This document shows, one piece after another, positions 16,134 to 49,943 of a DNA stretch of 64,000 nucleotides; within the stretch, counting starts at the first letter, position 1; each line of letters opens with the position of its first letter. Position numbers and translations under genes: made by a program. Below the pieces are notes generated by a model. The model did no database searches, had not been told where the DNA came from, and worked only from the letters and a program-made list of their open reading frames with translations. The DNA comes from Parcubacteria group bacterium CG10_big_fil_rev_8_21_14_0_10_36_14 (GTDB taxonomy: Bacteria > Patescibacteriota > Patescibacteriia > GCA-002772895): contig PFCS01000050.1 of assembly GCA_002772895.1 (NCBI GenBank), forward strand, positions 6,728 to 70,727, in the 5' to 3' direction.

Positions 16134-17279
16134 TTAAAAAGTTATCCTTTTTATTAAAAGTTTGTCATCTATTTTTAAATTCTTTAAAATATTCACGATA
16201 CGTTCTGACGAAGCACCGTCCCCATATGGGTTCACCGCTTGGGAAACAATCGTTTTAAATTCAGCCGACAATGCTCTTTTTATTGCAGACACTACCTCGT
16301 TGGTATCATAACTAGAATGTATTATATTTGTAGCATACTCGCGACCCAACTGTCGTCTACCTACATTAACTGTTGGCAACTTAAAAACAGGTGATTCGAT
16401 AAGCCCGCTTGAAGAATTGCCTATCATTACTGAGGCAACATTCATAATTCCAGCATATTCTCTCCGAGGTAAATTTCTAAAAATTTTCGTCAAAGGCGAA
16501 CGATTTTTATTTATAACATTGCGCACTTCTTTACTTCCGGCATCAGAATTAGGAAAAATAATTACAACCTGTGCACCAAAAGAATTCACTGCCTGCAAAA
16601 CTTTTACAGTATTCTCTGCAGCACTTGCATATTCTTCGGTTACTGGATGCATAACCAAAAGAAAAATGGGCTTACTTGAATCAAAACCAAATTTGTTAAA
16701 AATTTCTTCTTTTGGAGCAATCTCCGAACCATCAACTAGCTCATCCAACATTGGCGCACCAGTATTATAAACCCTAAAATCCTGTTCCCCGCTTTTAATT
16801 AAGCGATCAGCCGCTTGTTGGCTAGCAGCAAAATGAACGTGCGCATATCTTGCAATTGCATGGCGAGTAGCATCATCAATATTCCCCGATACTTCACCAG
16901 CTTGAATATGCGCAACGGGTATATAGAGATGCGATCCTGTTATAGCCGCCATTAACTGCTCCCCTCTATCACCTGCGAGAAGAATAATATCTGGCTTAAG
17001 ACGATCAATAGCTTCTGGAGCTTGCATCAAAAATACTCCAAGAGATTTTACCATCGTTTGATGATTATAGCCATCAAAAGTATTATGTATTGATTCTGAT
17101 ATTTTAAAACCATCTTTTTTTATTTCTTGCGCACTATATCCGAATTCATGCAAAAGATGCAAATTTGTTATAATAATTTCATATTCTAAATCCGGATCTT
17201 TTTCAATCCTTCTAATAATTGGGCGAATATATCCATATTCTCCTCTTGACCCCGTAATTATAGCTATTTTTCGTGACAT
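16134..17279 (-). CDS. neuC: UDP-N-acetylglucosamine 2-epimerase, hydrolysing type (NeuC/LegG family).
   Basis: MSRKIAIITGSRGEYGYIRPIIRRI...DIILLAGDRGEQLMAAITGSHLYIPVAHIQAGEVSG...HMGNMENA is the NeuC-family (Epimerase_2) pattern. 381 aa. Confidence 0.8.
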   Translation of the reverse strand: MSRKIAIITGSRGEYGYIRPIIRRIEKDPDLEYEIIITNLHLLHEFGYSAQEIKKDGFKISESIHNTFDGYNHQTMVKSLGVFLMQAPEAIDRLKPDIILLAGDRGEQLMAAITGSHLYIPVAHIQAGEVSGNIDDATRHAIARYAHVHFAASQQAADRLIKSGEQDFRVYNTGAPMLDELVDGSEIAPKEEIFNKFGFDSSKPIFLLVMHPVTEEYASAAENTVKVLQAVNSFGAQVVIIFPNSDAGSKEVRNVINKNRSPLTKIFRNLPRREYAGIMNVASVMIGNSSSGLIESPVFKLPTVNVGRRQLGREYATNIIHSSYDTNEVVSAIKRALSAEFKTIVSQAVNPYGDGASSERIVNILKNLKIDDKLLIKRITF

Positions 17280-17282
17280 AAT

Positions 17283-17957
17283 TTATTTCAATAAAAAACG
17301 GGCGATTTCTAGATCAAACAGTGTATTTATATCTACGCCCTCTTTTTCTTCAACTACTATAAATGCACTTTTTCCTCCTAAAATTTTGCCACTTTCCTTT
17401 AAAACGCTTGATTTAATAATATACCCTACTCCCGCCTCTTTGTAAAGTGGATCTCTTTCCTGGCTTCTACGCGAAGCATTAGAAAAAAGCGGCGCCCAGT
17501 GGCTATCTTTATTAATCAGCCAAAAGTAGCTTCTATCTTCAATAACAGTACCTACCGAGTCAAATCCTTCATCAATAACCTTATATATCATCTTCTCAAT
17601 CGTATGCTGTTCTCGCATTGGAGAAGTCGGCTCAAGCAATAAAAGATAATCAAAAATCTCGCCTTTTATTAAAAACTCATCTAAAACATTTATTAAAACC
17701 GGTTCTGTTTTTATCATATCTCCAGACAGCTCTGCTGAACGCTTTAATGCTTCCGCTCCATAAGCGGACGCTATAGACAAAATTTTCTCACTATCTGAAG
17801 AAACAACAATCTTATCAATTATAGAAATTTTTTTAGCTAATTCAACCGAATATGCTAAAAGCGGTTTACCATTCAAATCGATGATATTTTTTTCAAGTAT
17901 TCTTTTTGAGCCTCCACGCGCTGGGATAACAGCAACGATTTTTTTATTTTTATACAT
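17283..17957 (-). CDS. neuA: Acylneuraminate (nonulosonate) cytidylyltransferase, CMP-NulO synthetase (NeuA/LegF family).
   Basis: KIVAVIPARGGSKRILEKNIIDLNGKPLLAYSVELAKK...VVSSDSEKIL is the CTP_transf_3 signature. 224 aa, as for short NeuA/LegF. Confidence 0.8.
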   Translation of the reverse strand: MYKNKKIVAVIPARGGSKRILEKNIIDLNGKPLLAYSVELAKKISIIDKIVVSSDSEKILSIASAYGAEALKRSAELSGDMIKTEPVLINVLDEFLIKGEIFDYLLLLEPTSPMREQHTIEKMIYKVIDEGFDSVGTVIEDRSYFWLINKDSHWAPLFSNASRRSQERDPLYKEAGVGYIIKSSVLKESGKILGGKSAFIVVEEKEGVDINTLFDLEIARFLLK

Positions 17958-17959
17958 AT

Positions 17960-18994
17960 TTACTCCAAATCATTCCATTGCAAAATAGCATTTTTTGCAA
18001 TATCATGTTTAGTTTTACGACCAAACAAACCCTCTGAAAATATTTTATCTAAAAATTTTGCTGGTATGCCTGTACCCGGACGCGCAGCCCTCAAATTATG
18101 CGCACCAACTACTTCTCCGGCTCCTATGTCGTCCTTGGCTATAACGCTGTGATGAGCCCAATCGCGCACGTCCTGCTCTTCTTTGGTTATATTTTTTTCT
18201 GAAAAAAGTGTTTTCTCTACCTTTCTTATTGCGGAGACCAATTCTTTAAATTCTTCCGGATCTAATGACACGAGGTCGTCTGGTCCATGTAAATCACGAA
18301 TTGTAAAATGTTTCTCAATCACTCGCGCACCTAACGCTACTGCAGCTATAGAGCTATAAATTTCTTTAGTATGATCCGAATGACCAATTAAAATTCCAAA
18401 TTCTTTTTCTAAAATATTAATCAAATTCAAATTCAAATGCTCATAGTTAGCAGGATATTCGGATGTGCAGTTGGTTAGAACAAAATCAACACCTTCTTCC
18501 TTAAGTACAGCTACCGTTTCCCTAATTTCATCCATTGTACACATACCAGTTGAAACAATCATCGGTTTTCTCTTCTTGGCTATATGACGAATCATCGTAA
18601 GATTTGTCATTTCACCAGAACCGGTTTTAAATGCTTTAACTCCAATTTCATCCAAAATATCGGATGCTTCAATACAAAAGGGTGTACATAAATATTGTAT
18701 CCCAATTTCATTACAATACTTCATTAATTCTTTGTGCTGTTCTTTTTCACCAATGTTAACTTTCGCCAAAATTTTGTCTAATGACCCTGCCCAAAAATTA
18801 ATAACATTGGGAACCATTTCTATTTCCGGAATATGTAATTGAAATTTGGCAATATCGGCCCCGACATTTTTTGCCATCCTTATAAGCTCCTTAGCATTTT
18901 CCATATTTCCCATATGTTCGCATGCAATTTCAGCTATAACAACAACTGGGGTAGTTTTTCCAATAATAATATTTCCAAATTTTATATCTTTCAT
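17960..18994 (-). CDS. neuB: N-acetylneuraminate (nonulosonic acid) synthase, NeuB/LegI/PseI family, with C-terminal SAF domain.
   Basis: PVVVIAEIACEHMGNMENAKELIRMAKNVGADIAKFQ, ...FKTGSGEMTN..., ...VSTGMCTMDEI... and ...GHSDHT... are NeuB TIM-barrel motifs. C-terminal SAF/antifreeze-like segment reads SVIAKDDIGAGEVVGAHNLRAARPGTGI. 344 aa. Confidence 0.85.
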   Translation of the reverse strand: MKDIKFGNIIIGKTTPVVVIAEIACEHMGNMENAKELIRMAKNVGADIAKFQLHIPEIEMVPNVINFWAGSLDKILAKVNIGEKEQHKELMKYCNEIGIQYLCTPFCIEASDILDEIGVKAFKTGSGEMTNLTMIRHIAKKRKPMIVSTGMCTMDEIRETVAVLKEEGVDFVLTNCTSEYPANYEHLNLNLINILEKEFGILIGHSDHTKEIYSSIAAVALGARVIEKHFTIRDLHGPDDLVSLDPEEFKELVSAIRKVEKTLFSEKNITKEEQDVRDWAHHSVIAKDDIGAGEVVGAHNLRAARPGTGIPAKFLDKIFSEGLFGRKTKHDIAKNAILQWNDLE

Positions 18995-20761: not shown

Positions 20762-22132
20762 CTATTTAACTAAAATTTCCAATAAAGAATTGGCAATTCT
20801 TTTATTAGCTTGCCCATCATTTTTATAACATAATTGTTCCACTATCCTTCTTCTTCCTTCACTATGCAGGCTATAATTTTCTAAATATTCATTAATCTGA
20901 TTCTTTAAATCCTCAGGACTACTCACCATGCTAACTCCGCCGGTTTCAACCACGTCATTAAAGTGACTGAAAGAATAAAAATAATTTACCGAATGCCTAA
21001 AATCTGCCTGTGGCACAGCATCAAACGCTATGCTTATAAGTGGCTTATCTAGCATTGATCCGTCCAAAGAAAGCGTTGAACAGGTAGATATTATTACATC
21101 CGAATGATAAAGCATATTAAAAAAATCAATCATTTCTTCTTTTGACGCATCCCACGAATCTAAAAATAGATTTGTTATTCTGTGTTTATTGTCTATATAA
21201 ACAAAATCGTATTTATTAAATTCGAGAAAACGTTTTTTTTCTATGTCCGAATAATGCGGACGGATGACCAAAGAAGCATCGTGCAATAATTCTTTATTTT
21301 TTATAAAATTGCATATTATATTAGCCACTCCCTCATCTGCCCGACCCCAAAGACCTTCTGAACCAAAAAAAATTAATTTTTTATTGGGGTCAAGCCCCTT
21401 TTTTTTAAAAAATTCTTCTCTCAAAATAATTAATTCTTTTTTGGAATAAATATCAAACTGCGGAAATCCTGTAACTAAAATTTTTTCGGCACATATATTC
21501 TGCAAGTTACTAACCGTCTCCTTCATTGATTGATTAAATACTATCATTTTGTCTGGTTCTACCCTAAAAAGCCGACGATCAACCGTATCCCATCCTTTTG
21601 CCATAGCAACTGTTTTTATTTTCTTTTTTTTAGCAATCTTTAGAAAAGCAATATCTACTTTCCCTAAAATAGTAGTAGAAAAAATTAGGTCTGGTTTATA
21701 TTTATCAAAAAAGTGTTCATATTTTTTTTCTTTAAAAAGATAGAGTTCCAGCCATCTAAAAATTTTTTTTAAAACGGTGCTTTGTGATAAAACCCCAAAT
21801 ATACCAGCCTCCAAAAAATATATAATTGTATTTTTACCTTTTTTTTTGTACGTTCCATAACGCGACAATAGCCGCGAACCTTTCGTATAAACAAGATTAT
21901 CAATCAATGGAAGAAAAAATTTTCTTTGTATCCTTGATAACTCACCTTCTCCAGTATTTTCAATAATAATTCTCGAATGATTAAATTCTTCTTTAAGATA
22001 TTGAGGTGCTTCTGAAGGAAGCATCAAAACAATTCTGATATTTTCGTCTCTTAATAAATGATCTATTATTCCTGTTCTTAATATATTTCTCGCAATGATT
22101 CCTCTACTTATAATAATAAAAATTGTTTTCAT
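20762..22132 (-). CDS. CDP-glycerol glycerophosphotransferase family (TagB/TagF-like) protein; putative polyol-/sugar-phosphate transferase.
   Basis: C-terminal HSDVIISTCSTLSLDGSMLDKPLISIAFD parallels the TagF motif DILITDYSS...LLDKPIIFYAYD, and VIRPHYSD parallels the TagF histidine region. 456 aa. Paralog of 25248-26615. Confidence 0.55.
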   Translation of the reverse strand: MKTIFIIISRGIIARNILRTGIIDHLLRDENIRIVLMLPSEAPQYLKEEFNHSRIIIENTGEGELSRIQRKFFLPLIDNLVYTKGSRLLSRYGTYKKKGKNTIIYFLEAGIFGVLSQSTVLKKIFRWLELYLFKEKKYEHFFDKYKPDLIFSTTILGKVDIAFLKIAKKKKIKTVAMAKGWDTVDRRLFRVEPDKMIVFNQSMKETVSNLQNICAEKILVTGFPQFDIYSKKELIILREEFFKKKGLDPNKKLIFFGSEGLWGRADEGVANIICNFIKNKELLHDASLVIRPHYSDIEKKRFLEFNKYDFVYIDNKHRITNLFLDSWDASKEEMIDFFNMLYHSDVIISTCSTLSLDGSMLDKPLISIAFDAVPQADFRHSVNYFYSFSHFNDVVETGGVSMVSSPEDLKNQINEYLENYSLHSEGRRRIVEQLCYKNDGQANKRIANSLLEILVK

Positions 22133-22135
22133 AAA

Positions 22136-22963
22136 TTATTTATACCCTACTAAAAAATGTCCTTGCGACAAAGTATAGTTAGTTTTAAATGGATATTTTA
22201 AGAAAATTTTTCTAATCCAAAGCGTAAAATTATATAATTTTGCGATAGCTTTATCCGTTTTCATAGAAATCGGCACAAATATCGGAAAAGGATTTACGTT
22301 TACCGCATAAACTTTTTTAAAACCCATATTTTTTACCTTTTCAATATAATCTTCCGGCGTATCATTGTTCCGATAATAATCTTTTGGTGGATAGAACTTA
22401 CCGGAAAGTAACCTCAAAAACCACTTATACAAATTATTAATATTTTGTGCTGACCATTTTTCAGGAATATTCAAGTGTATCATTACGCCACCCAATTTTA
22501 ATACGCGATAACCCTCTTTAATCGTTACATCATAATTATCTATATGCTCCAAAAGACCTATTGAATAAACAATGTCAACAGAACTATCCGGCATAGGAAT
22601 GGAATCACTCGAACCAACAAAAAATTCCGCTCGTGCATCATACTTGCTAAAATTTTCTTTTGCTAATTTTATTGCGTCTTCAGATATATCAAGAAGCGCT
22701 ACTTCAATCCCATCGTATTTATTCAAAAATAACGACATCGTTCCACGTCCACATCCAAGCTCTAATCCATTTTTATAATTTTTATCTTTTATTAAATTTT
22801 CAAAAAATTTATAATACCAAAAAAAATTTATCTGCCTCTGCGTTCTCGGTTTCATTCCCTTTGGCACAAACAAACTAAATTCATCATCACTACTCTTTTC
22901 TGATATTAATTTCCACTTATCTTCAAACTTTATACTTTGCATATTTAAATGGTTAAACCCCAA
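22136..22963 (-). CDS. Class I SAM-dependent methyltransferase.
   Basis: Motif I GLELGCGRGTMSLFL, then ...LLDISEDAIKLAKENF... and ...VDIVYSIGLLEHID...LKLGGVMIHLN. Confidence 0.75.
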   Translation of the reverse strand: MGFNHLNMQSIKFEDKWKLISEKSSDDEFSLFVPKGMKPRTQRQINFFWYYKFFENLIKDKNYKNGLELGCGRGTMSLFLNKYDGIEVALLDISEDAIKLAKENFSKYDARAEFFVGSSDSIPMPDSSVDIVYSIGLLEHIDNYDVTIKEGYRVLKLGGVMIHLNIPEKWSAQNINNLYKWFLRLLSGKFYPPKDYYRNNDTPEDYIEKVKNMGFKKVYAVNVNPFPIFVPISMKTDKAIAKLYNFTLWIRKIFLKYPFKTNYTLSQGHFLVGYK

Positions 22964-23675
22964 AAAAGTCTTTTTTATTTTCTCCGATTATTTTTTTGGC
23001 ATTCTTTAGCTCTTCCGGAAAATCAACTTCTAGCCAACCATGCCCGGAGATATCTCCAATTAATATTTCATTGGATTCCGACAGCTTCCGAACAACATCT
23101 TCCACAACCAAATTTTCTTCTCCTTGCGCCAATAGTTCATCTATGCAATTTTTGTATTCATTTAACATAGCAATATCACAATAAGTAAGCCCAACATATC
23201 CGCCATTAAATTTATCAAGTTTTTTAGAAATTTTTTTTAAAATAAAACTTTCATGTTCAACCTTCATATCATCATCTCCTAAGGGACGATCAAAATCACA
23301 GAAAGCCGTAATCCCCTTTAACTGATTTTTTACTTTTTCAGCGATTGCTTTTTTATATATATGATCAGCATTACAAATCAAAAAAGAATTTTCTATTTTT
23401 GGCAAAGCCTTTAACAATGTGTATAAATTACCCTTCAAATATTCCGGATTTTCAATTACCTCCGCTTCACTGTCGTAGCCAATAACCTTTTCTTTCAATT
23501 TTTCATAATCGCATCCGCCAATAATTTTTATTTCATCTGCACCAACCGCACGCAAAAAATCAATAGCATAATGCGCTAAGGGCTTTCCTTCAATTTCTAC
23601 CAACGCCTTTGTTGTACCGGCACCCAGACGTTTACCAATTCCGGCCGCTAAAAGAACACCTGTTAATTTGCTCAT
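22953..23675 (-). CDS. Nucleotidyltransferase (NTP_transferase fold; LicC/MobA-like sugar- or alcohol-phosphate cytidylyl/nucleotidyltransferase).
   Basis: LTGVLLAAGIGKRLGAGTTKALVEIEGKPLAHYAIDFL is the G-x-G-x-R-L nucleotide-binding signature of the sugar-phosphate nucleotidyltransferase family. 240 aa. Confidence 0.7.
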   Translation of the reverse strand: MSKLTGVLLAAGIGKRLGAGTTKALVEIEGKPLAHYAIDFLRAVGADEIKIIGGCDYEKLKEKVIGYDSEAEVIENPEYLKGNLYTLLKALPKIENSFLICNADHIYKKAIAEKVKNQLKGITAFCDFDRPLGDDDMKVEHESFILKKISKKLDKFNGGYVGLTYCDIAMLNEYKNCIDELLAQGEENLVVEDVVRKLSESNEILIGDISGHGWLEVDFPEELKNAKKIIGENKKDFFGV

Positions 23676-24307
23676 ATAATTAAATTGCTAATTTTTTTAA
23701 TAATTGGAATTTCATTATTAAGCGCCTTAAAATCATCTTCTTTAAAAGTTCCGACTTTTCCTATAAAATCAATATTTTCGGCATTTGCTAAAAAATAATC
23801 GTTCAAAGAATCGCCAATAAAGACTATTTTATCTTTCTCTAAGCCCAACTCTTTTATAGTAAAATCAAAATGATTCCTCCCCTTAGCAAAACCGTCTTTA
23901 AAACCTAATGCTAAATCAAAAATACTATGTAAATTATTATTATCAATAAATTTATCAATATTATACTGAAAATTATTTGAAGATATCACCAAGTTATAAT
24001 TAACTTCCTTTAGCTGTTTCAGAGCTTCCAGCGCCCCATCTTCCAATTCAACATCAGATGTTGCGAATAACTTTTGTTCTTCGTATATCGGCGCAACAAT
24101 TTTATTTTTTTCATTTCCCGGAAAAATTATTTCTAATTGTTGATAAAACGGAAAACCACTAGTTTTCAAATACATCTTCCGCGCCTCGCATTTATCCATT
24201 CCGTAATGCTCCGATATAAGGGAGCTCGCTACGTCAGTAAAAATCTGCATCGTATCAGCCAATGTACCGTCAAAATCAAAAATAATTGTATTTTTATTAG
24301 ATAACAT
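23672..24307 (-). CDS. HAD-superfamily hydrolase (phosphatase-like).
   Basis: Motif I IIFDFDGTLADT, motif II LVISSNN, motif III/IV ...KDKIVFIGDSLNDY. Overlaps the NTP-transferase gene by 4 nt (ATGA). Confidence 0.75.
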   Translation of the reverse strand: MLSNKNTIIFDFDGTLADTMQIFTDVASSLISEHYGMDKCEARKMYLKTSGFPFYQQLEIIFPGNEKNKIVAPIYEEQKLFATSDVELEDGALEALKQLKEVNYNLVISSNNFQYNIDKFIDNNNLHSIFDLALGFKDGFAKGRNHFDFTIKELGLEKDKIVFIGDSLNDYFLANAENIDFIGKVGTFKEDDFKALNNEIPIIKKISNLII

Positions 24308-24313
24308 AATTCT

Positions 24314-25237
24314 TTATATTAATTTTGCATTAAGACGTTTTAATGCCCACCTCTCCAAATTCTTGCCATTAATCCCCAACTTAGTGCTTAATGCCACATC
24401 ATAGCCTAATTCTTCTAAAATAGCAATGGTATTCGCATTATAATTTCCATGAGGATAAGAAATGGCATAAATAGGAATGTTTATAATATTTTCTAATATA
24501 TCTTTTGGCTTTTTTATTTCTTCATACATATCGTTTTTCGATAGCTCATCTAAACGTAAATGCCTATCGCCATGCGTCCCGATTGTCATTCCCGCCTCCG
24601 CCATTTCCGCTATTTCGCGTTTATTTAAATAAAGATTTTCGCAAAATTCTCTTTCATCACCTATATATTTCGGAAAAACTGCGCCTAAAAACTCCATCTT
24701 CTTTTCTTCAGGCAAAGTTTGTAAAATAATTTTCAAATTAACCGTAAGCACATCATCATATATATACCTATCGTCTCTTTTTTCTTTATCACTTAAAGCA
24801 AATTCTTTTTGTATCGTTTTATTTTGTTTTTTAATAAACTCATAATATTCTTCCGCTAATCTTTTTGTACCTATTTTAGCAAGTAAAAAATGCACCTTAT
24901 GTACATTGGCTACTTTTCCCTCTAAAGACATCGTGATAGGAAAAAATACACCCTTTATTCCATATTTTTTTAAAATCGGAAAGACACTGTCATAATGATC
25001 ACTCAATCCATCATCAAAAGTAAAAACACACGCCTTTGATGGTAACTCTTTTTGTCCTAATACGGATTGTCGCACGTCTTCTAAAGAAATTATTTCATAT
25101 TCGCTTTTAAATCTTTCAATATGATTCTTAAATAAGTCTGTCCCTATAGCATTTATCTTTGGAAAGGGCGTTTTATCCGCATCTCGCACATAATGATACA
25201 TTATTATAGCCAATTCTTTTTCTTGTCCTTCTTTCAT
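24314..25237 (-). CDS. Polysaccharide deacetylase (NodB-homology, CE4).
   Basis: ACVFTFDDGLSDHYDSVFPILKKYGIKGVFFPIT (NodB motifs 1-2) and GTHGDRH (His motif). Confidence 0.75.
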   Translation of the reverse strand: MKEGQEKELAIIMYHYVRDADKTPFPKINAIGTDLFKNHIERFKSEYEIISLEDVRQSVLGQKELPSKACVFTFDDGLSDHYDSVFPILKKYGIKGVFFPITMSLEGKVANVHKVHFLLAKIGTKRLAEEYYEFIKKQNKTIQKEFALSDKEKRDDRYIYDDVLTVNLKIILQTLPEEKKMEFLGAVFPKYIGDEREFCENLYLNKREIAEMAEAGMTIGTHGDRHLRLDELSKNDMYEEIKKPKDILENIINIPIYAISYPHGNYNANTIAILEELGYDVALSTKLGINGKNLERWALKRLNAKLI

Positions 25238-25247
25238 AAATATTTTT

Positions 25248-26615
25248 TTATAAACTTATTAATGCTTCGGCAATACGTTTTCCTGATTGTCCATCTACCT
25301 TATAACAAAAATTATTCCTCAATTTTTCACGACCCTCGCTTCTTAAGGTGGAATTTTTCAGATATCCATTGATTGCTATCTTCAATTCATTAGGAGATTT
25401 AACAATTTCTATTCCTCCTGAAGCTACAATCGGCTTAAAATGAGTCGAGTCATACCAACGCGCCACCGAACTCCCGTACTCTTTCTTTTTATAGCCATCA
25501 AAAGCTATCCCTACTATCGGCTTGTCGCATACAGCCGCATCAATAGTCAATGTAGAAGAATAATTCATCATTATTGTCATCTGCATCATTAATGCAGAAA
25601 AATATTCCATATGCTCATACGAGTAATCCCAGGAATCGCGAAAAATATTATTTCGTTTAAACCAATGGTCAATGATAATATTTTTTTCTCCTAAAAATTT
25701 TTCAAATTTCTTTTCACCATCTCTTGCTGAAAAATAAGGACGAATAAATAAAATACAATCTTTTTCAAGCTCGCCTTTATTTATCCAGTCCCGAACCATT
25801 TCTGCAATCTCTATATCAGTCGAGGAATATTTGGCATCTGACCCAAGCACTAAAATTTCTTTTTTCGGATCTACGCCTATTTTCTTAAAAAACTCTTCTC
25901 GCGAAAAAGAACTCATCGGCTTAGAATAAACATCAAACTGCGGAATCCCAACAACAAAGATATCGTCACTATCAATATTCTGATACTTTTTTGCTTCTTT
26001 TATAAGACCACTTCCCCATAAAAATAATTTCTCTGGCTTTACTCGAAAGCTCATCTTGGAAAGGTTGTCCCAGCTTTTAGGCATAGCTATAATTTTTACG
26101 CCAAATCTTTTTGCAGCCTTTAACACATAAGAATCAGCATCATCCATGGGATTTGTAGAAAAAACTATATCCGGACTGTATTTCTGAAAAAAAACGTAAT
26201 ACTCCTTACCGGGACAAAAAAGAAAATCAATATAGCGAATTACCTCTTTAATAAATCCAAATTTGGAAAGGGGCTTAAAAAAAATTCTTTTTAATATTCT
26301 ACGCATGGCGCTAGTTTCGCTTTTGTCCATAATGCCATATTTATCACGCAGAACAGTACTCTCATTGTAAACTAAGGCCTTATTGAGACCGGCAAAAAAA
26401 TAATCACGTAGATTCCATTTATGGTTATAAAGCGGTTCAAAAAAAATATTTTCTTCGCCAAACTCCTTCCTAAAGACTTCGTCACTAAAAGCAGGGCTCA
26501 AAATTATAATTTTCCAGCCCTCTTTTTTAAGAATCTCATAAAACTCGTTATGTAAAAAATTCTTTGCGATAGAACCGCGTGAAATAGTTATAAAAATTGT
26601 TTTTTTTGTTTGCAT
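25248..26615 (-). CDS. TagB/TagF-like glycerophosphotransferase-family protein (paralog of 20762-22132).
   Basis: Same length (455 aa) and colinear similarity to the first copy (MQTKKTIFITISRGSIAKNFL vs MKTIFIIISRGIIARNIL; FIRPYFS...; ...MNYSSTLTIDAAVCDKPIVGIAFD). Confidence 0.55.
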   Translation of the reverse strand: MQTKKTIFITISRGSIAKNFLHNEFYEILKKEGWKIIILSPAFSDEVFRKEFGEENIFFEPLYNHKWNLRDYFFAGLNKALVYNESTVLRDKYGIMDKSETSAMRRILKRIFFKPLSKFGFIKEVIRYIDFLFCPGKEYYVFFQKYSPDIVFSTNPMDDADSYVLKAAKRFGVKIIAMPKSWDNLSKMSFRVKPEKLFLWGSGLIKEAKKYQNIDSDDIFVVGIPQFDVYSKPMSSFSREEFFKKIGVDPKKEILVLGSDAKYSSTDIEIAEMVRDWINKGELEKDCILFIRPYFSARDGEKKFEKFLGEKNIIIDHWFKRNNIFRDSWDYSYEHMEYFSALMMQMTIMMNYSSTLTIDAAVCDKPIVGIAFDGYKKKEYGSSVARWYDSTHFKPIVASGGIEIVKSPNELKIAINGYLKNSTLRSEGREKLRNNFCYKVDGQSGKRIAEALISL

Positions 26616-29637: not shown

Positions 29638-30342
29638 TTATTTTTTTTGTTGCATTAAAAATTCCGCGAACTCAAAATCAATTGGTGCGTTTATATCAAC
29701 AGAACGCTCTTCTGACATAATATAAGCACGACTGTCCTTACCAAATAAATCTCCTCGCATTATTAAATCTGTTCGCGTCAAATAAATAGCGCAATTTCTT
29801 TTATAAACGTTTTTTAATGATTGACGAGATGCGCTTTTGTTTCCTTCGTCTTCCATTAAAGGAAAAATTTTATCGCCATCTAAAACCTTCAATTTTGCAA
29901 TCGACATATCTTCCATTTTTTTCATTCCCATAACAGAATCCGCGTCCGTTTCAACTATTTTTTCTATTGACATGTCAATATCTTCTGCTGTGCGAAGTGG
30001 ACTTGTAGGCTGTAAAATCATTACATAATCAAAGGTTCTATCTTCATTTTCTTGGAGCCATTTTACAACGTGCTGAATTACAGGAATGCTTTTTGCATTG
30101 TCGGTCGCCAATTCATCAGGTCTCATAAATGGCACAAGCGCACCATATTCGCGCGAAATTCCAGCAATCTCACTATCGTCGGTTGAAACCAAAAAATAAT
30201 CCAAACATTTGCTATTTTTAGCCGCCTCTATCGTATAGGCAATAAGCGGTTTTCCCGCCAACTCTTTTATATTTTTCCGTGGTATTCCTTTAGACCCTCC
30301 ACGTGCTGTAATTACAGCTAAAATTGTCTTATTTTTGAACAT
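29638..30342 (-). CDS. neuA: Second acylneuraminate/nonulosonate cytidylyltransferase (NeuA/LegF family).
   Basis: TILAVITARGGSKGIPRKNIKELAGKPLIAYTIEAAKNSK...LVSTDDSEIAGISREYGA is the CTP_transf_3 signature. 234 aa. Confidence 0.8.
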   Translation of the reverse strand: MFKNKTILAVITARGGSKGIPRKNIKELAGKPLIAYTIEAAKNSKCLDYFLVSTDDSEIAGISREYGALVPFMRPDELATDNAKSIPVIQHVVKWLQENEDRTFDYVMILQPTSPLRTAEDIDMSIEKIVETDADSVMGMKKMEDMSIAKLKVLDGDKIFPLMEDEGNKSASRQSLKNVYKRNCAIYLTRTDLIMRGDLFGKDSRAYIMSEERSVDINAPIDFEFAEFLMQQKK

Positions 30343-30399
30343 ATTATAATAATGTAGTATTCATATGATATTCTTATAAAATACACTAATCTGACCAAT

Positions 30400-30428
30400 T
30401 TGACAAGAAATTTATATAGGTGTAAATT
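30400..30428 (+). promoter_or_regulatory. Candidate sigma70-like promoter for the second neuC-like gene (TTGACA-N17-TAAATT).
   Basis: ttgaca at 30400-30405, a 17-nt spacer, taaatt at 30423-30428, and the ATG at 30455. It lies in the 112-nt divergent intergenic region. The -10 element is weak. Confidence 0.3.
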
Positions 30429-30454
30429 TATATTATATAATAACATCAAAAATT

Positions 30455-31648
30455 ATGCAAAATAAGCGAAAAATTGCCGTTTTAATCATCAACCGAGCCA
30501 ATTATGGCCGCCTAAAACCGGTGTTAAGAGCAATTCAAGAACATCCGGACTTAGAATTGCAATTAATAGTCGGCTCATCAATGTTGCTTTACAGATTTGG
30601 AAATGACATTGATTATATTGAGCGAGACGGCTTTAAAATTTCAGCTAAATTCAACATGATTATTGAAGGTGGCACACCAACAACAATGGCCCAATCTGCC
30701 GGTTTAGGGCTTATGAATTTGCCAACTATCCTAGAACAACTTAATCCTGATATTTTTTTAGTTAATGCAGACCGATTTGAAATTCTGCCAGCCGCTATTG
30801 CCGCCGCATATATGAACATCACCTTAGCACATACTTTGGGCGGAGAAATAACCGGCACAATTGACGAATCTGTGCGCCATGCGGTTACAAAACTGGCGCA
30901 TATTCATTTCGCTGCGCATAAACCGGCGGCAGAAAGAATTGCCAGCATGGGCGAAGATCCAAATAATATATTTATAGTCGGAAACCCTTCTTTGGATATT
31001 GCAAAAACAATCTCTGAAAAAATAAATATTGAAAAGTTTATAGATATTAGTCGAGGTACAGGATCCCCAATAGATTTTTCTAAACCATATATTCTTTGCT
31101 ATCAACATCCAGTAACTACCGAATATCAAGATGCATATAAACAAATTATTACTACTCTTGAAGCGTTGAGAAATATAAATATACAAACAATCATGCTTTG
31201 GCCAAATCCTGACGCCGGTACAGATATGCTTTCAAAAGGAATTAGAGTATTTAGAGAAAAAAATCCGGAATCACTAATCCACTTTTACAGAAGCTTTGCC
31301 AATGAAGATTATTTGAGCTTAATAAAAAACGCCTCCTGCATTGTCGGTAACTCATCATCAGCAATAATGGAAGGCGGATTTTTCGGTACACCCGCAGTAA
31401 ATATCGGCACCCGTCAGCAAGGACGCGAGAAATGTATCAACGTTGTAAATACAGGATATAGTAGAGAAGAAATAGAAAACGCCATAAAAGGACAGCTGGC
31501 ATACGGAAAATATAATCCCGATTATTTTTTCGGCGACGGACAGAGCGCCAAGCGTATTGCCGAAATTCTAGCAAACCATAACGTCCAGATACAAAAACAA
31601 TTTAATAAAGAAAAGGGCTTTCACTTGATAAAAAACTATATTAATTAA
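30455..31648 (+). CDS. neuC: Second UDP-GlcNAc 2-epimerase, hydrolysing type (NeuC/LegG family).
   Basis: KIAVLIINRANYGRLKPVLRAI...DIFLVNADRFEILPAAIAAAYMNITLAHTLGGEITG...HAVTKLAHIHF is colinear with the first NeuC-like copy. 397 aa. Confidence 0.8.
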   Translation: MQNKRKIAVLIINRANYGRLKPVLRAIQEHPDLELQLIVGSSMLLYRFGNDIDYIERDGFKISAKFNMIIEGGTPTTMAQSAGLGLMNLPTILEQLNPDIFLVNADRFEILPAAIAAAYMNITLAHTLGGEITGTIDESVRHAVTKLAHIHFAAHKPAAERIASMGEDPNNIFIVGNPSLDIAKTISEKINIEKFIDISRGTGSPIDFSKPYILCYQHPVTTEYQDAYKQIITTLEALRNINIQTIMLWPNPDAGTDMLSKGIRVFREKNPESLIHFYRSFANEDYLSLIKNASCIVGNSSSAIMEGGFFGTPAVNIGTRQQGREKCINVVNTGYSREEIENAIKGQLAYGKYNPDYFFGDGQSAKRIAEILANHNVQIQKQFNKEKGFHLIKNYIN

Positions 31649-31676
31649 AACATCCTGCGATATCGCAGGATGTTTT
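31647..31676. terminator. Perfect 30-bp palindrome; bidirectional intrinsic terminator shared by convergent neuC-like (+) and 2-hydroxyacid dehydrogenase (-) genes.
   Basis: aaaacatcctgcgat|atcgcaggatgtttt. Both stop codons (TAA at 31646-31648 on +, TAA encoded at 31675-31677 on -) overlap the stem ends. A-tract upstream and T-tract downstream. Confidence 0.7.
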
Positions 31677-32625
31677 ATAATATTTTTTTCACTTTCTCAG
31701 CAATGAAAATTTCCGTATTTTTCATTGAGTCATAAGTTGCACCACCGATGTGCGGAACAATTATTAGATTATTATGCGACTTAGTATATTCAAGAAGCAA
31801 ATTACCTTTTAAAAATTCTCCACCAGCGGTTTCTTCTGCCATAACATCAAGCCCTGCTCCGGCAATTTTCTTGGCCTTTAAGGCATTTAAAAGCGCGCTT
31901 TCATTTATAATTTTTCCCCGCGAAGTGTTTACTAGATATGCGCTTTCTTTCATCATCTTAAATTCCCGTTCACCTATTAAATCAACCGTCTCTTCATCCA
32001 AAGGCACATGCACGCTAATAAAATCAGCCCGCGACAGAAGCTCTTCAAAAATTGCTGACTCTGCCGCGCCACGCTCAATTTCCTCTTGGTTAACATACGG
32101 ATCATAGGCAACAACATTCATAAAAAACGCATTTCCATATTGAGCAATAATTTTTCCTAGCCGTCCAAAACCAATTATTCCTAAAGTTTTACCACGCAGC
32201 TCTATACCCTTAAAACTATCACGGTCCCAATTTTCTTTTTTCACCGACTCATATGCATCAGGTATATGCCGGATTAAAGCCAAGAACAGTCCCCAAGACA
32301 ATTCTGCAGTAGCTGTTATTGTATTTAAAAATTCCGTCTCCCCCTTTAAGCTTGCAACTTGCACGCCATGCTTCCCTGCCTCTTTCATATCAATATGGTC
32401 CAGCCCGGTTGTCGGACAAGCAATAATTTTTAAATCTTCCGCTGCATCTAAAATCTCTTTATCAATTTTATGTTCTAAACGGATAACTAAAATATCAGCG
32501 TCTTTTACGCCTGCCAGTAATTCACCTCGCGATAATTTCTTTTCTGCAAAAACATCTCCCACCTCTTGATAAATTGCAAGCGCCTCCTTACTGTAATCGC
32601 CGGGTTCACTAATTAAAATTTTCAT
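31675..32625 (-). CDS. D-isomer-specific 2-hydroxyacid dehydrogenase (SerA/GhrB/PdxB-like, NAD-binding).
   Basis: GKTLGIIGFGRLGKIIAQYG (GxGxxG), ...ISVHVPLDEETVDLIGEREFKMMKESAYLVNTSRGKIINESALLNALK...GAGLDV is the D-2-HADH catalytic domain pattern. Confidence 0.8.
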   Translation of the reverse strand: MKILISEPGDYSKEALAIYQEVGDVFAEKKLSRGELLAGVKDADILVIRLEHKIDKEILDAAEDLKIIACPTTGLDHIDMKEAGKHGVQVASLKGETEFLNTITATAELSWGLFLALIRHIPDAYESVKKENWDRDSFKGIELRGKTLGIIGFGRLGKIIAQYGNAFFMNVVAYDPYVNQEEIERGAAESAIFEELLSRADFISVHVPLDEETVDLIGEREFKMMKESAYLVNTSRGKIINESALLNALKAKKIAGAGLDVMAEETAGGEFLKGNLLLEYTKSHNNLIIVPHIGGATYDSMKNTEIFIAEKVKKIL

Positions 32626-49208: not shown

Positions 49209-49943
49209 TTATAATTTTCTTATTCGTTTCCATTGCCTCAACATTTTATATATCCATATCATAAAAAATCCCGATGCGTAAAAATATAAATACCAGTCTA
49301 TATGCCCTATGAGAACGGCTATAATAAGCACAAAAAACATTCCCGTGCCGGTAAAAAAATTTCTGTATATTAAATAAAATATGTTTGTGGGTGCCTTTTT
49401 ATACTGGAGCCAACCGTAAGTCTTGCCTTGTTTTTCCGCGACAATCCTCTGCATTGCGTCATACCTAAACTCCGCAAGCCGAAATAAAAGCTTTGATACA
49501 GTCGCTATAAGGGTGGCTATTAAAGGCAGACGGTTTCCAAGAATCAATGACTGGCCGATACCTATCGGCAAAAAATAAAAGGCATACATTATGTCATGAC
49601 TTACCGGCTCTACATAAGCGCCACCTATATTTCCTCCTTGAGCGGATTTTTTATAGCGCGCAACTTCGCCGTCACAAGCATCCAATATGAATGATATGAA
49701 CATCAAAATAAGTCCAATTATATAAAAATTCACTCTTCCAAAAATAAATAGTGACACTCCTGACAAATAAAAAATAGTTCCAAGCGCTGTAATCTGATTT
49801 GGTGTAATAGGTGTATGGATAAAAACATGGGTAAAATAAATAGAAAAAATCCTGTTTATCCTACCCTCAATGCTTTGTGTTTGCCATGAAGGCGCGTATT
49901 CTGATTTTTGGCAAATCTTTCTAAGTTCTTTTATTCCCGACAT
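49209..49943 (-). CDS. CDP-alcohol phosphatidyltransferase-family membrane enzyme.
   Basis: LDACDGEVARYKKSAQGG...D matches the CDP-OH_P_transf D-x2-DG-x2-AR...G...D...D signature. About 6 TM helices. Confidence 0.6.
   Translation of the reverse strand: MSGIKELRKICQKSEYAPSWQTQSIEGRINRIFSIYFTHVFIHTPITPNQITALGTIFYLSGVSLFIFGRVNFYIIGLILMFISFILDACDGEVARYKKSAQGGNIGGAYVEPVSHDIMYAFYFLPIGIGQSLILGNRLPLIATLIATVSKLLFRLAEFRYDAMQRIVAEKQGKTYGWLQYKKAPTNIFYLIYRNFFTGTGMFFVLIIAVLIGHIDWYLYFYASGFFMIWIYKMLRQWKRIRKL

What the first reader, a model, noticed from the sequence alone, without database searches (positions are those of the whole stretch)
20762..26615. Phosphodiester-substituent toolkit embedded in the island (2x TagF-like, NTP-transferase + HAD phosphatase, CE4 deacetylase; CDP-alcohol phosphotransferase at 49209-49943)
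TagB/TagF-family enzymes transfer alcohol-phosphates from CDP-alcohols (glycerol-P, ribitol-P). The locus provides a LicC/MobA-like nucleotidyltransferase with an overlapping HAD hydrolase gene, two TagF-like paralogs, a membrane CDP-alcohol phosphotransferase and a D-2-hydroxyacid dehydrogenase (31675-32625). Together these could supply a glycerate/glycerol-type precursor. This argues that the glycan carries phosphodiester-linked polyol or head-group decorations (teichoic-acid-like or phosphocholine-like), which is unusual alongside sialic-acid chemistry.
Basis: partly seen in the sequence, partly recalled or inferred. Interest (0 to 1): 0.55.

Follow-up and report, generated by a model that had tools for sequence, protein, structure and literature searches.

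The report
His-less TagF-like transferases beside sialic-acid-like genes
The genes are real, but the two "teichoic-acid-type" enzymes lack that family's catalytic histidine and most likely attach sialic-acid-like sugars to a surface glycan of an uncultured Parcubacteria bacterium, while a separate CDP-alcohol pathway may add a phosphodiester head group.

Summary
The gene content at 20762-26615 is confirmed. It holds two paralogous GT-B proteins with weak Pfam Glyphos_transf hits, a LicC/IPCT-like cytidylyltransferase overlapping a HAD hydrolase by 4 bp, and a cytoplasmic CE4 deacetylase. The window is a giant glycan island of a Parcubacteria (CPR) MAG.

The two "TagF-like" proteins match the TagF family only in the nucleotide-binding C-terminal half. 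They lack the invariant W-H catalytic histidine (TarL H300 / TagF H444) and have an invariant W-D instead. Paralog 2 also lacks the second histidine.

All 36 family members tested score best against NCBIfam BFO_1060, the Tannerella forsythia pseudaminic/legionaminic-acid transferase family. In 26 related CPR loci, a CMP-nonulosonate synthetase lies within 10 kb in 19, and a TagD-like gene in 2. Relatives also recur in non-CPR nonulosonate loci that have no LicC-like gene.

Best reading: two CMP-nonulosonate transferases serving the island's two nonulosonate modules. The 2-hydroxyacid dehydrogenase travels with one of those modules. The cytidylyltransferase pairs statistically with the distant CDP-alcohol phosphotransferase, so a phosphodiester head group remains plausible. 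A few relatives sit in islands with no nonulosonate genes in view, so CDP-alcohol use by paralog 1 is not excluded.

The parts
20762..22132 (-). TagF-superfamily GT-B paralog 1 (456 aa). Candidate CMP-nonulosonate transferase. Has W181-D182 in place of the TagF W-H motif and keeps H293.
22136..22942 (-). SAM methyltransferase (268 aa from the ATG; ORF extends to TTG at 22963). Forms a recurrent methyltransferase + TagF-like pair.
   Evidence: Methyltransf_11 3.3e-19. Gene called as 268 aa in the metagenome contigs. A homolog abuts a TagF-like gene in L019, L022, L026, L027, L032 and lies 159 bp from one in L034; several of these loci have no NTP-transferase in view.
22953..23675 (-). LicC/IPCT-type alcohol-phosphate cytidylyltransferase (240 aa).
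   Evidence: NTP_transf_3 2.2e-14. NF041135 IPCT/DIPPS 3e-24, full length. PDB LicC 1.3e-10, IPCT 7e-9. Homologs are named choline kinase/LicC-type, L-glutamine-phosphate cytidylyltransferase or AEP-type by JGI.
23672..24307 (-). HAD-IA hydrolase (211 aa, DxDGT motif), overlapping the cytidylyltransferase by 4 bp.
   Evidence: HAD_2 1.5e-23. Phosphoglycolate-phosphatase-like hits only. Overlap and motif read directly. A homolog is present in only 1 of 26 related loci.
24314..25237 (-). Cytoplasmic CE4 de-N-acetylase (307 aa; TFDDG and HGDRH motifs; no signal peptide or TM segment).
   Evidence: Polysacc_deac_1 6.3e-26. Sequence and hydropathy. Homologs lie within 0-1.8 kb of TagF-like genes in L012, L018, L026, L027 and L031.
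25248..26615 (-). TagF-superfamily GT-B paralog 2 (455 aa). Candidate CMP-nonulosonate transferase. Has W182-D183, and Y294 where TagF enzymes have their second histidine.
   Evidence: Glyphos_transf 8.2e-6. BFO_1060_trans 1.7e-15, TIGR04396 4e-8, no TarB/TarF hit. 36% identical to paralog 1. Sits in a separate clade whose members also lie next to NeuB/CMP-synthetase genes.
29638..30342 (-). CMP-nonulosonate synthetase B (donor supply, module B).
   Evidence: CTP_transf_3 1.1e-24. PseF-like 5.4e-52, below cutoff.
30455..31648 (+). NeuC-type hydrolysing 2-epimerase B.
   Evidence: TIGR03568 NeuC_NnaA, 373 bits, above the 235.9 cutoff.
31675..32625 (-). D-2-hydroxyacid dehydrogenase (PGDH-like). 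Travels with nonulosonate module B.
   Evidence: Adjacent to CMP-synthetase B / NeuC-like / NeuB homologs in L010, L011 and L042. Present in 9 of 32 independent nonulosonate loci.
16134..18994 (-). Nonulosonate module A: NeuC-like (16134-17279), CMP synthetase A (17283-17957), NeuB-like synthase (17960-18994).
   Evidence: NeuC_NnaA 391.6 bits, above cutoff; NeuB_NnaB 1.4e-89 and PseF 6.7e-41, both below cutoff.
49209..49943 (-). Membrane CDP-alcohol phosphotransferase (244 aa). Probable partner of the cytidylyltransferase.
   Evidence: PDB AF2299 7e-9 and IPCT/DIPPS 8e-4. NCBIfam archaetidylinositol-phosphate synthase 3.3e-10. TM segments. Variant motif D88xxDGxxAR...G108xxxE112xxxxD117, kept in 6 of 7 distinct sequences aligned. 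Co-occurs with the cytidylyltransferase in 5 of 5 loci.

Best explanation
The block belongs to a cytoplasmic, lipid-linked glycan assembly line (Bac_transf primer, Wzx flippase, many glycosyltransferases) of a Parcubacteria (CPR) bacterium.

Transferases. The two "TagF-like" paralogs are GT-B enzymes. They keep the cytidine-nucleotide-binding C-terminal domain of the TagF superfamily. They have lost the TagF phosphotransfer machinery: the W-H catalytic base and the polyol-binding loop with its lysine. An invariant Trp-Asp sits where topology places the W-H motif. The most likely function is transfer of nonulosonic (sialic-acid-like) sugars from CMP-activated donors onto the growing glycan. One paralog would serve each of the island's two CMP-nonulosonate synthetase modules (A at 16134-18994, B at 29638-32625). 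The inferred mechanism uses the Asp as general base and the C-domain His/Tyr at the CMP phosphate, as in inverting GT-B sialyltransferases and as proposed for T. forsythia Tanf_01245/BFO_1060.

Tailoring. Each transferase gene is paired with a methyltransferase and/or the cytoplasmic CE4 deacetylase. These probably tailor the sugar or its acceptor (O-methylation, N-acyl exchange).

CDP-alcohol route. The LicC/IPCT-like cytidylyltransferase and its overlapping HAD hydrolase form a separate route. Their most likely partner is the DIPPS/AF2299-like CDP-alcohol phosphotransferase at 49209-49943. That route would add a phosphodiester-linked head group of unknown identity.

Shown: gene content, fold, remote TagF homology restricted to the C-domain, absence of the catalytic His, HMM grouping, and the co-occurrence statistics. 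Inferred: donor identity, the role of the Asp, the one-to-one pairing with modules, and the nature of the head group.
For: 1. HMM grouping. All 36 family members hit NCBIfam BFO_1060_trans (best 3.6e-23) and 21 hit TIGR04396. Only 2-4 hit TarB/TarF/TarL. BFO_1060 is the T. forsythia transferase whose orthologue knock-outs lose the terminal Pse/Leg derivative (PMC5420450).

2. Catalytic residues. TarL/TagF catalysis needs two invariant histidines: H300/H444 in a W-H motif, and H433 (PMC10901376). Their motif positions were verified in true TarL/TarF/TagF sequences. In the CPR family no N-domain column reaches 50% His, while W181-D182 is invariant. The TagF-invariant lysine column and the APTxR motif are not kept. 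Homology to TagF is confined to residues 193-454.

3. Forward co-occurrence. In 26 Patescibacteria loci of at least 12 kb, a CMP-nonulosonate synthetase is present in 19, NeuB in 16, a TagD-like gene in 2 and the cytidylyltransferase in 8. Of 52 TagF-like genes, 13 directly abut a nonulosonate gene. The closest homolog (60% identity, L008) overlaps a CMP-synthetase gene on each side.

4. Reverse test. Of 32 independent nonulosonate loci anchored on CMP-synthetase homologs, none has a LicC-like gene, yet 9 carry a relative of this family. These include loci of 62-66% G+C, and relatives that align across the motif keep W-D-N/H (one has R-D-N).

5. Counts. The window holds 2 CMP synthetases and 2 TagF-like genes, and 1 cytidylyltransferase and 1 CDP-alcohol phosphotransferase. 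L011 and L042 show 2 and 2 in the same way.

6. Cytidylyltransferase pairing. It co-occurs with the CDP-alcohol phosphotransferase in 5 of 5 loci against 8 of 26 overall. My hypergeometric calculation gives p about 9e-4, but the loci are not fully independent. The two proteins match the two halves of the one bifunctional IPCT/DIPPS model.

7. No other recognisable nonulosonate transferase family appears in the Pfam listings of the island.
Against: - No biochemical assay exists for any member of this family, and the BFO_1060 evidence itself is genetic only.
- The window proteins score 57-66 bits against BFO_1060, far below its 200-bit cutoff, and only over model positions about 35-194.
- Loci L009/L013/L028/L048 carry a type-1 TagF-like gene with no nonulosonate gene within 10 kb. 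They carry instead a CDP-alcohol transferase, a kinase, two NTP-transferases and three methyltransferases. Their active-site motifs are the same as in the other members.
- The order cytidylyltransferase, methyltransferase, TagF-like type 1 recurs in the window, L011, L042 and L048.
- Only 12 of 26 TagF-like genes with full flanks have a CMP-synthetase or NeuB within 3.5 kb.
- Sequence alignments disagree on which residue is equivalent to H300, so the assignment of D182 as the base rests on strand topology only.
Confidence: 0.55

Rival explanations
1. Mixed model. Paralog 1 (20762-22132), which sits directly downstream of HAD, cytidylyltransferase and methyltransferase, transfers the CDP-activated and possibly methylated head-group phosphate onto the glycan. 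This would be the TagF-like reaction with a different base. Paralog 2 (25248-26615) transfers a nonulosonate.
For: - The tightly packed order HAD, NTP-transferase, methyltransferase, paralog 1 has gaps of -4 to 10 bp.
- The same order (NTP-transferase, methyltransferase(s), type-1 TagF-like) appears in L011, L042 and L048.
- L009/L013/L028/L048 have a type-1 gene and a LicA/LicC-like kinase plus cytidylyltransferase, but no nonulosonate gene in 21 kb.
- L048-type islands encode two NTP-transferases but only one CDP-alcohol phosphotransferase, which leaves one activated donor for the TagF-like enzyme.
- Paralog 1 keeps the second TagF histidine (H293); paralog 2 does not.
Against: - Paralog 1 lacks the W-H base, the TagF-invariant lysine and the APTxR motif, just as paralog 2 does.
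- Its closest homolog, L008, is sandwiched between two CMP synthetases.
- Eighteen of 26 loci with type-1 genes have no such cytidylyltransferase.
- The methyltransferase + TagF-like pair recurs without the cytidylyltransferase (L019, L027, L032, L034). The shared order may therefore be two abutting modules.
- Type-1 genes in both kinds of context share the same motifs.
Confidence: 0.2
2. Both paralogs are TagB/TagF-type phosphotransferases that add polyol- or head-group-phosphates from CDP-alcohols. The glycan would then be teichoic-acid-like or phosphocholine-like.
For: - Pfam Glyphos_transf is above gathering score in both proteins.
- hhalign to true TagF enzymes gives 98.6%.
- A LicC/IPCT-like cytidylyltransferase lies between the paralogs.
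- PGAP names relatives "CDP-glycerol glycerophosphotransferase family protein".
Against: - The catalytic His is absent, and paralog 2 also lacks the second His. Both histidines are individually essential in TarL.
- There is only one cytidylyltransferase for two transferases plus a CDP-alcohol phosphotransferase.
- TagD-like genes are seen in 2 of 26 loci, and no TarI/TarJ-type or TagD gene appears in the Pfam listings of the window.
- Most relatives have no cytidylyltransferase nearby but do have CMP-nonulosonate genes.
- The HMM preference is for BFO_1060.
- The 2-hydroxyacid dehydrogenase belongs to a nonulosonate module.
Confidence: 0.1
3. The paralogs are neither of the above. They could be ordinary NDP-sugar GT-B glycosyltransferases, NeuC-like hydrolase/epimerase relatives, or scaffolds that have lost catalysis.
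Against: - Invariant W-D, GxPQFD, R291, D439-G440 and R445 across a family down to about 30% identity argue for a conserved active site.
- The only significant sequence homology in the C-domain is to cytidine-nucleotide-using families.
- True NeuC-type enzymes are already present twice in the island, above their cutoff.
Confidence: 0.08

Closest known systems
Tannerella forsythia nonulosonate transferases Tanf_01245 / TFUB4_00887 / BFO_1060 (NCBIfam NF046086)
   Same: - Similar size: about 445 aa against 455 aa.
- Cytoplasmic, with no TM segment.
- Both give a "TagB-superfamily" hit.
- Encoded next to CMP-Pse/Leg biosynthesis genes with a methyltransferase alongside.
- The glycan is built on a lipid carrier and flipped by Wzx.
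- NF046086 is the best-scoring curated HMM for all 36 CPR family members.
   Different: Scores are 57-66 bits against a 200-bit cutoff, and only part of the model aligns (positions about 35-194). The proteins come from a different phylum (CPR rather than Bacteroidota). There are two paralogs per locus. The acceptor is unknown. No genetics or biochemistry exists.
TagF/TagB/TarF/TarL polyol-phosphate transferases (Pfam PF04464)
   Same: GT-B fold. The C-terminal cytidine-nucleotide domain is homologous: G-x-P-x-x-D linker, R/K-x-H motif, S-S/T...D/E ribose-binding motif, K/R-P.
   Different: No W-H catalytic base, no counterpart of the TagF-invariant lysine column, and no APTxR motif. Paralog 2 has Tyr for the second His. 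No N-terminal polymerase domain or amphipathic membrane helices were identified. No TagD or TarI/TarJ partner.
Inverting GT-B sialyltransferases (GT80 PmST1, GT52, GT38 polysialyltransferase)
   Same: The proposed logic is the same: a CMP-activated nine-carbon acid donor, an Asp/Glu base from the N-domain, and a His at the CMP phosphate. This is from general knowledge, plus the motifs cited in PMC5420450.
IPCT/DIPPS (CTP:inositol-1-phosphate cytidylyltransferase / CDP-inositol phosphotransferase) and the LicC system
   Same: The 22953-23675 and 49209-49943 proteins match the two halves of the bifunctional IPCT/DIPPS model. Their best solved relatives are LicC/IPCT and AF2299/DIPPS. A phosphatase that could finish the pathway is adjacent.
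   Different: The two genes are split and lie 26 kb apart. No inositol-phosphate synthase, choline kinase or LicD appears in the window. The distal half of the CDP-alcohol motif is a variant, G-x3-E-x4-D. The substrate is unknown.

Membership tests
TagF/TagB/TarL family (PF04464, polyol-phosphate transferases) | GT-B fold with a homologous CDP-binding C-terminal domain; Pfam score above gathering threshold | tested here: met
TagF/TagB/TarL family (PF04464, polyol-phosphate transferases) | Invariant catalytic-base histidine in the W-H motif (TarL H300, TagF H444) | tested here: not met
   W-H is invariant in 7 true TarL/TarF/TagF sequences. In three MAFFT runs that column is Y/K/S/N/Q in the CPR family. 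No N-domain column of the 36-sequence alignment reaches 50% His. The topologically equivalent loop reads W181-D182 in paralog 1 and W182-D183 in paralog 2.
TagF/TagB/TarL family (PF04464, polyol-phosphate transferases) | Second invariant histidine at the alpha-phosphate (TarL H433, TagF H584) | tested here: inconclusive
   Aligned column: H293 in paralog 1, Y294 in paralog 2. His occurs in 27 of 36 family members; the rest are Y, Q or P.
TagF/TagB/TarL family (PF04464, polyol-phosphate transferases) | Donor polyol-binding loop after the W-H strand with an invariant Lys, and the APTxR motif | tested here: not met
   The invariant-Lys column is S/A/other in the CPR family. APTxR is replaced by G-S-E-G-x-W. 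The role of the loop is described in PMC10901376.
TagF/TagB/TarL family (PF04464, polyol-phosphate transferases) | Genomic partnership with CDP-glycerol/CDP-ribitol synthesis genes (TagD, TarI/TarJ) | tested here: not met
   A TagD-like hit occurs in 2 of 26 related loci and none in the window. True family members fetched for comparison do sit next to tagD/tarI/tarJ.
BFO_1060 family glycosyltransferase (NF046086; T. forsythia Pse/Leg-derivative transferases) | HMM score at or above the curated cutoff (200 bits) | tested here: not met
   65.6 bits (paralog 1) and 57.0 bits (paralog 2), matching model positions about 35-194 of 365.
BFO_1060 family glycosyltransferase (NF046086; T. forsythia Pse/Leg-derivative transferases) | Significant and preferential similarity to this family over other curated families | tested here: met
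   36 of 36 members hit it (best 3.6e-23). The next families are TIGR04396 (21 of 36) and TarF/TarL/TarB (4, 2 and 2 of 36).
BFO_1060 family glycosyltransferase (NF046086; T. forsythia Pse/Leg-derivative transferases) | Encoded beside CMP-nonulosonate biosynthesis genes | tested here: met
   The window has two NeuC/NeuB/CMP-synthetase sets within 1.8-3 kb. A CMP synthetase is present in 19 of 26 related loci. Thirteen of 52 genes abut a nonulosonate gene. The reverse test gives 9 of 32.
BFO_1060 family glycosyltransferase (NF046086; T. forsythia Pse/Leg-derivative transferases) | Loss of the terminal nonulosonate on gene deletion, or transfer from the CMP-sugar in vitro | not testable with these tools
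   The organism is uncultured. Recombinant enzyme assays are needed.
LicC/IPCT-type CTP:alcohol-phosphate cytidylyltransferases (for 22953-23675) | Full-length similarity to LicC/IPCT rather than to sugar-1-phosphate nucleotidyltransferases; N-terminal G-x-G-x-R signature | tested here: met
   1JYK 1.3e-10 (residues 4-230). 2XME 7e-9. NF041135 3e-24 (residues 5-230). Sugar-1-P enzymes match only the first 60-120 residues, about 1e-3 in the PDB search and down to about 1e-10 in NCBIfam. LAAGIGKRLG read directly.
LicC/IPCT-type CTP:alcohol-phosphate cytidylyltransferases (for 22953-23675) | Identity of the phospho-alcohol substrate (choline-P, inositol-1-P, AEP, glycerol-P and so on) | not testable with these tools
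   No kinase, inositol-phosphate synthase or PEP mutase appears in the Pfam listings of the window. Source names for homologs are inconsistent.
CDP-alcohol phosphotransferases (PF01066; for 49209-49943) | Signature D-x2-D-G-x2-A-R-x8-G-x3-D-x3-D on a polytopic membrane protein | tested here: inconclusive
   The first half is present (D88-A-C-D-G-E-V-A-R96). The distal half is a variant, G108-x3-E112-x4-D117, kept in 6 of the 7 distinct sequences aligned. TM segments are present. The Pfam hit is only "weak". AF2299 7e-9.

The most novel reading that the evidence does not exclude
A Patescibacteria-wide clade of the TagF superfamily has swapped the catalytic His for an invariant Asp. It may be a new, uncharacterised family of nonulosonic-acid transferases, distinct from the sialyltransferase families GT38/42/52/80 and from Maf (from general knowledge; not checked against CAZy), and only distantly tied to BFO_1060. 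Some members may have been re-used for CDP-activated head groups such as choline- or cyclitol-like groups. If so, ultra-small episymbiotic bacteria spend at least 60 kb of a roughly 1-Mb genome displaying several sialic-acid-like sugars together with phosphodiester head groups, which would be a possible host-mimicry or attachment coat.
Probability: 0.35. Interest if true: 0.6.

Novelty: new variant of a known kind. Interest (0 to 1): 0.42.

Why it matters
Very few transferases for bacterial sialic-acid-like sugars (pseudaminic, legionaminic and related acids) are known. Those that are known come mostly from genetics in pathogens.

A well-defined, structurally confident family with a diagnostic W-D for W-H substitution gives a concrete target for enzymology. 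It also corrects a systematic database mis-annotation: relatives are labelled "CDP-glycerol glycerophosphotransferase family protein", which would wrongly suggest teichoic-acid-like polymers in CPR bacteria.

The result also adds to the picture of CPR cell surfaces. Here one genome of about 1 Mb devotes a 60-kb-plus island to a heavily tailored glycan: two or three nonulosonate modules, many methyltransferases, three B12 radical-SAM enzymes and a CDP-alcohol route. Surface chemistry is likely central to these organisms' episymbiotic lifestyle.

The finding is still annotation-level inference and not a new principle.

Tried and rejected
- phmmer of paralog 1 against PDB sequences found nothing meaningful. 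A 36-sequence profile reached only TarL, at E 0.0056.
- tblastn of paralog 1 against plasmids found no match.
- The AFDB50 fold library was unavailable, so no UniProt-annotated structural neighbours could be obtained.
- The first related-loci run with the diverse alignment failed. A narrower alignment worked.
- One script returned empty annotations because of a BLAST option error. It was repeated correctly.
- Extending hhalign into the N-domain and three MAFFT modes gave mutually inconsistent placements of the W-H motif: against a helix at about 163-166, or against Y145-K146. The claim "D182 replaces H300" therefore rests on strand order in the AF2 model and is marked as inferred. The robust statement is that no conserved His exists in the N-domain.
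- No BFO_1060 or TIGR04396 seed sequence could be obtained, so there is no direct alignment or tree with them.
- Phosphocholine via phosphoethanolamine N-methylation was considered. The top PDB hits of the 22136-22942 methyltransferase are plant phosphoethanolamine N-methyltransferases (about 1e-9). However, only the SAM core aligns, and generic methyltransferases score the same, so this does not discriminate.
- A MeOPN-like phosphoramidate pathway was considered because one JGI homolog is named L-glutamine-phosphate cytidylyltransferase. The paper read gave no domain information on the MeOPN transferases, and no Cj1415/1417/1418-like genes are evident in the Pfam listings, so it was dropped.
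- I could not test whether L009-type genomes carry nonulosonate genes elsewhere.

Full report
**Observation**

The region 20762-26615 holds seven, not six, tightly packed minus-strand genes. In order of transcription they are:
- TagF-like 2 (25248-26615)
- CE4 deacetylase (24314-25237)
- HAD hydrolase (23672-24307)
- NTP_transf_3 protein (22953-23675), overlapping the HAD gene by 4 bp
- TagF-like 1 (20762-22132)

Gaps are -4 to 10 bp. The two Glyphos_transf hits are weak (42 and 25 bits) and cover only the C-terminal halves.

The two proteins are full-length paralogs with 36% identity. None of the seven proteins has a signal peptide or TM segment by hydropathy, so the chemistry is cytoplasmic.

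The distant CDP-alcohol phosphotransferase (49209-49943) and the 2-hydroxyacid dehydrogenase (31675-32625) are also as described.

**Context**

Nearly the whole 64-kb window is one glycan island. It contains:
- a Bac_transf priming enzyme and a Wzx flippase
- many GT2/GT4 glycosyltransferases and about ten methyltransferases
- three B12 radical-SAM enzymes
- two CotH/beta-helix proteins
- aminotransferases
- two complete-looking nonulosonate modules, with a further NeuB at the right edge of the window

Module A is NeuC-like, CMP synthetase and NeuB-like at 16134-18994. Module B is CMP synthetase, NeuC-like and 2-hydroxyacid dehydrogenase at 29638-32625.

Identical proteins occur on metagenome contigs. 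The cytidylyltransferase is identical to COU51_03985 of a Parcubacteria group bacterium, CG10_big_fil_rev. All 40 GTDB loci with relatives of the TagF-like protein are Patescibacteria-type MAGs, although some carry placeholder names.

**What the TagF-like proteins are**

*Comparison set.* I fetched true TarL, TarF and TagF-family genes from Gram-positive plasmids. They sit next to tarI/tarJ/tagD there. I aligned them.

*Homology.* Profile-profile comparison with the CPR family gives 98.6% probability, but only for residues 193-454. That stretch is the inter-domain linker G-x-P-Q-F-D and the nucleotide-binding domain.

*Catalytic residues.* The TarL cryo-EM paper states that two invariant histidines are individually essential. 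These are H300, the base, which stacks on W299 at the start of the polyol-binding loop, and H433 at the alpha-phosphate. H444 is the equivalent base in TagF (PMC10901376). I verified that H300 lies in an invariant W-H motif.

In the CPR family:
- No column of the N-terminal domain reaches 50% His.
- The column aligned to W-H is Y/K/S/N/Q.
- The TagF-invariant lysine column and the APTxR motif are not kept.
- Instead the family has an invariant W-D (W181-D182 in paralog 1, W182-D183 in paralog 2). It sits on the loop after the fifth strand of the N-domain. By strand order, that is where TarL carries W-H. This equivalence is inferred, because the sequence alignments of the N-domain disagree.
- The second histidine is kept in paralog 1 (H293), is Tyr in paralog 2, and is variable across the family at 27 of 36.

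**Which family they group with**

Among NCBI's curated models, both paralogs score best against BFO_1060_trans (4.4e-18 and 1.7e-15), followed by TIGR04396. TarB/TarF appear only for paralog 1, at about 1e-5. Across the alignment, 36 of 36 members hit BFO_1060, 21 hit TIGR04396 and 2-4 hit TarF/TarL/TarB.

BFO_1060 is the strain 92A2 orthologue of Tanf_01245/TFUB4_00887. Deleting those genes removes the terminal pseudaminic- or legionaminic-acid derivative from the T. forsythia O-glycan. They were themselves noted to give a "TagB superfamily" hit, and they lie next to the nonulosonate genes with a methyltransferase between (PMC5420450).

The window proteins fall far below that model's 200-bit cutoff. 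They are relatives of the family, not members.

**Genomic association**

*Forward test.* In 26 related loci of at least 12 kb:

| Gene within 10 kb | Loci |
|---|---|
| CMP-nonulosonate synthetase homolog | 19 |
| NeuB | 16 |
| TagD-like | 2 |
| LicC-like cytidylyltransferase | 8 |

Of 52 TagF-like genes, 13 directly abut a nonulosonate gene and 13 abut a methyltransferase. The closest homolog (60% identity, L008) overlaps a CMP-synthetase gene on both sides. L010, L011 and L042 show two TagF-like genes next to two nonulosonate modules.

A neighbour-joining tree separates a "type 1" clade (with paralog 1) from a "type 2" clade (with paralog 2). Both clades have nonulosonate neighbours.

*Reverse test.* I anchored on CMP-synthetase B homologs in metagenomes. 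Of 32 loci of at least 12 kb, none contains a LicC-like gene, yet 9 contain a protein that matches the CPR-family HMM better than a true-TagF HMM. These include loci with 62-66% G+C that cannot be close relatives. Those relatives that align across the motif keep W-D-N/H (one reads R-D-N), and many read R-x-H-P.

**Counter-evidence**

- A subclade of type 1 (L009/L013/L028/L048) sits in compact islands with no nonulosonate gene within 10 kb. Those islands carry a CDP-alcohol phosphotransferase, an alcohol dehydrogenase, an NTP-transferase fused to a dehydroquinate-synthase-like cyclase, an APH-type kinase, a LicC-like cytidylyltransferase and three methyltransferases immediately upstream of the TagF-like gene.
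- The order cytidylyltransferase, methyltransferase, type-1 gene also holds in L011, L042 and the window.
- The active-site motifs of that subclade do not differ from the rest.
- B. subtilis SpsB, a TagB-domain protein beside legionaminic-acid genes, is dispensable for Leg transfer (PMC7439481).
- On the other side, the methyltransferase + TagF-like pair recurs in loci without any cytidylyltransferase (L019, L027, L032, L034). The shared order may therefore reflect two abutting modules.

I keep a mixed model (paralog 1 using the CDP-activated product) as the main rival.

**The rest of the toolkit**

*Cytidylyltransferase.* It is of the alcohol-phosphate type. It shows full-length similarity to LicC (1.3e-10) and IPCT (7e-9; NF041135 3e-24). 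Sugar-1-phosphate enzymes match only its first 60-120 residues.

*CDP-alcohol phosphotransferase.* The 49209-49943 protein resembles AF2299 and the DIPPS half of IPCT/DIPPS. It carries a family-conserved variant of the catalytic motif.

*Pairing.* All five related loci with this phosphotransferase also have the cytidylyltransferase, against 8 of 26 overall. My calculation gives a hypergeometric p of about 9e-4, with the caveat that two loci are near-duplicates. The two proteins behave like a split IPCT/DIPPS.

*HAD protein.* It has an intact DxDGT motif and overlaps the cytidylyltransferase gene. Homologs are present in only 1 of 26 loci. It could trim a bisphosphate before activation, or dephosphorylate the product as in PIP/DIPP pathways. 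This is inference.

*Head group.* No inositol-phosphate synthase, choline kinase, LicD, PEP mutase or TagD is evident in the window. The head group is unknown.

*2-hydroxyacid dehydrogenase.* It is adjacent to CMP-synthetase B, NeuC-like and NeuB homologs in L010, L011 and L042, and is present in 9 of 32 independent nonulosonate loci. It belongs to nonulosonate module B and not to a glycerate/CDP-alcohol route.

*CE4 enzyme.* It is cytoplasmic with intact metal and catalytic motifs. It lies close to TagF-like genes in five other loci. That fits N-acyl remodelling of a nucleotide- or lipid-linked amino sugar.

**Verdict**

My confidence in the main model is about 0.55.

This is a new variant of a known kind. 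It is of moderate interest, mainly as an enzymology target and as a correction to annotation in CPR genomes.

Noticed in passing
L014:1563-4352; L042:4788-6701 and 7453-8382; L048:3584-6401: Related CPR islands encode an NTP-transferase fused to a dehydroquinate-synthase-like sugar-phosphate cyclase. In L014 an APH-type kinase is fused as well (929 aa). These sit next to an ADH/SDR, a LicC-like cytidylyltransferase and a CDP-alcohol phosphotransferase. This looks like a route to a nucleotide-activated cyclitol (carbasugar or inositol-like) head group. The window itself lacks the fusion.
   Followed up: partly
window 19053-20657, 37111-38520, 60043-61452: Three B12-binding radical-SAM enzymes lie in one glycan island. 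The first sits just downstream of TagF-like 1. Its best match is the Sden_1168/PhpK-type "P-methyltransferase" models (1.7e-43, well below cutoff). No PEP mutase is present, so C- or P-methylation of a sugar or head group is open.
   Followed up: partly
window 31675-32625 (with L010:9015-9977, L011:11245-12210, L042:18590-19552): A PGDH-like D-2-hydroxyacid dehydrogenase is a conserved member of one nonulosonate module (CMP synthetase B, NeuC-like, NeuB). It is also present in 9 of 32 unrelated nonulosonate loci. This suggests an undescribed step or variant in that nonulosonate pathway.
   Followed up: partly
window 32622-35312 and 55840-58659: Two large proteins combine a CotH kinase-like domain with NosD/beta-helix repeats inside the glycan island. 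CotH is otherwise known from spore coats (general knowledge). Their role here is unexplained.
   Followed up: no
window 14321-16129: A CBS-domain protein, a VTC-domain protein and a DUF4956 protein lie directly downstream of nonulosonate module A. The CBS gene also follows the NeuC-like gene in L014. The VTC/DUF4956 pair recurs only in L034.
   Followed up: no
window 26619-27359 and 53191-54708: A small FemAB-like protein lies next to TagF-like 2. Elsewhere in the island there is a fusion of an Acetyltransf_6 (FemAB-type) domain with a DegT aminotransferase. Both hint at aminoacyl or unusual N-acyl groups on amino sugars. The CE4 deacetylase could prepare the free amine.
   Followed up: no
whole window 1-64000 (and L005, L006): The glycan island fills the entire 64-kb window and continues beyond its right edge (NeuB at about 63326 onward). 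Housekeeping genes (Lon, PheRS) lie beyond the window's left edge on the same contig. For a CPR genome of roughly 1 Mb this is an unusually large investment in one surface glycan.
   Followed up: partly
window 49209-49943 and homologs in L009, L013, L014, L028, L042: The CPR CDP-alcohol phosphotransferases share a variant catalytic signature, DGxxAR...G-x3-E-P-V-S-H-D, in place of the canonical G-x3-D-x3-D.
   Followed up: partly
L102:1-13877: A 62% G+C metagenome locus carries five tandem distant relatives of the His-less TagF-like family (about 100 bits each, S-W-D-H/N motif) around a CMP-nonulosonate synthetase. This may be a polymer-forming or multi-nonulosonate system in a non-CPR organism.
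   Followed up: no
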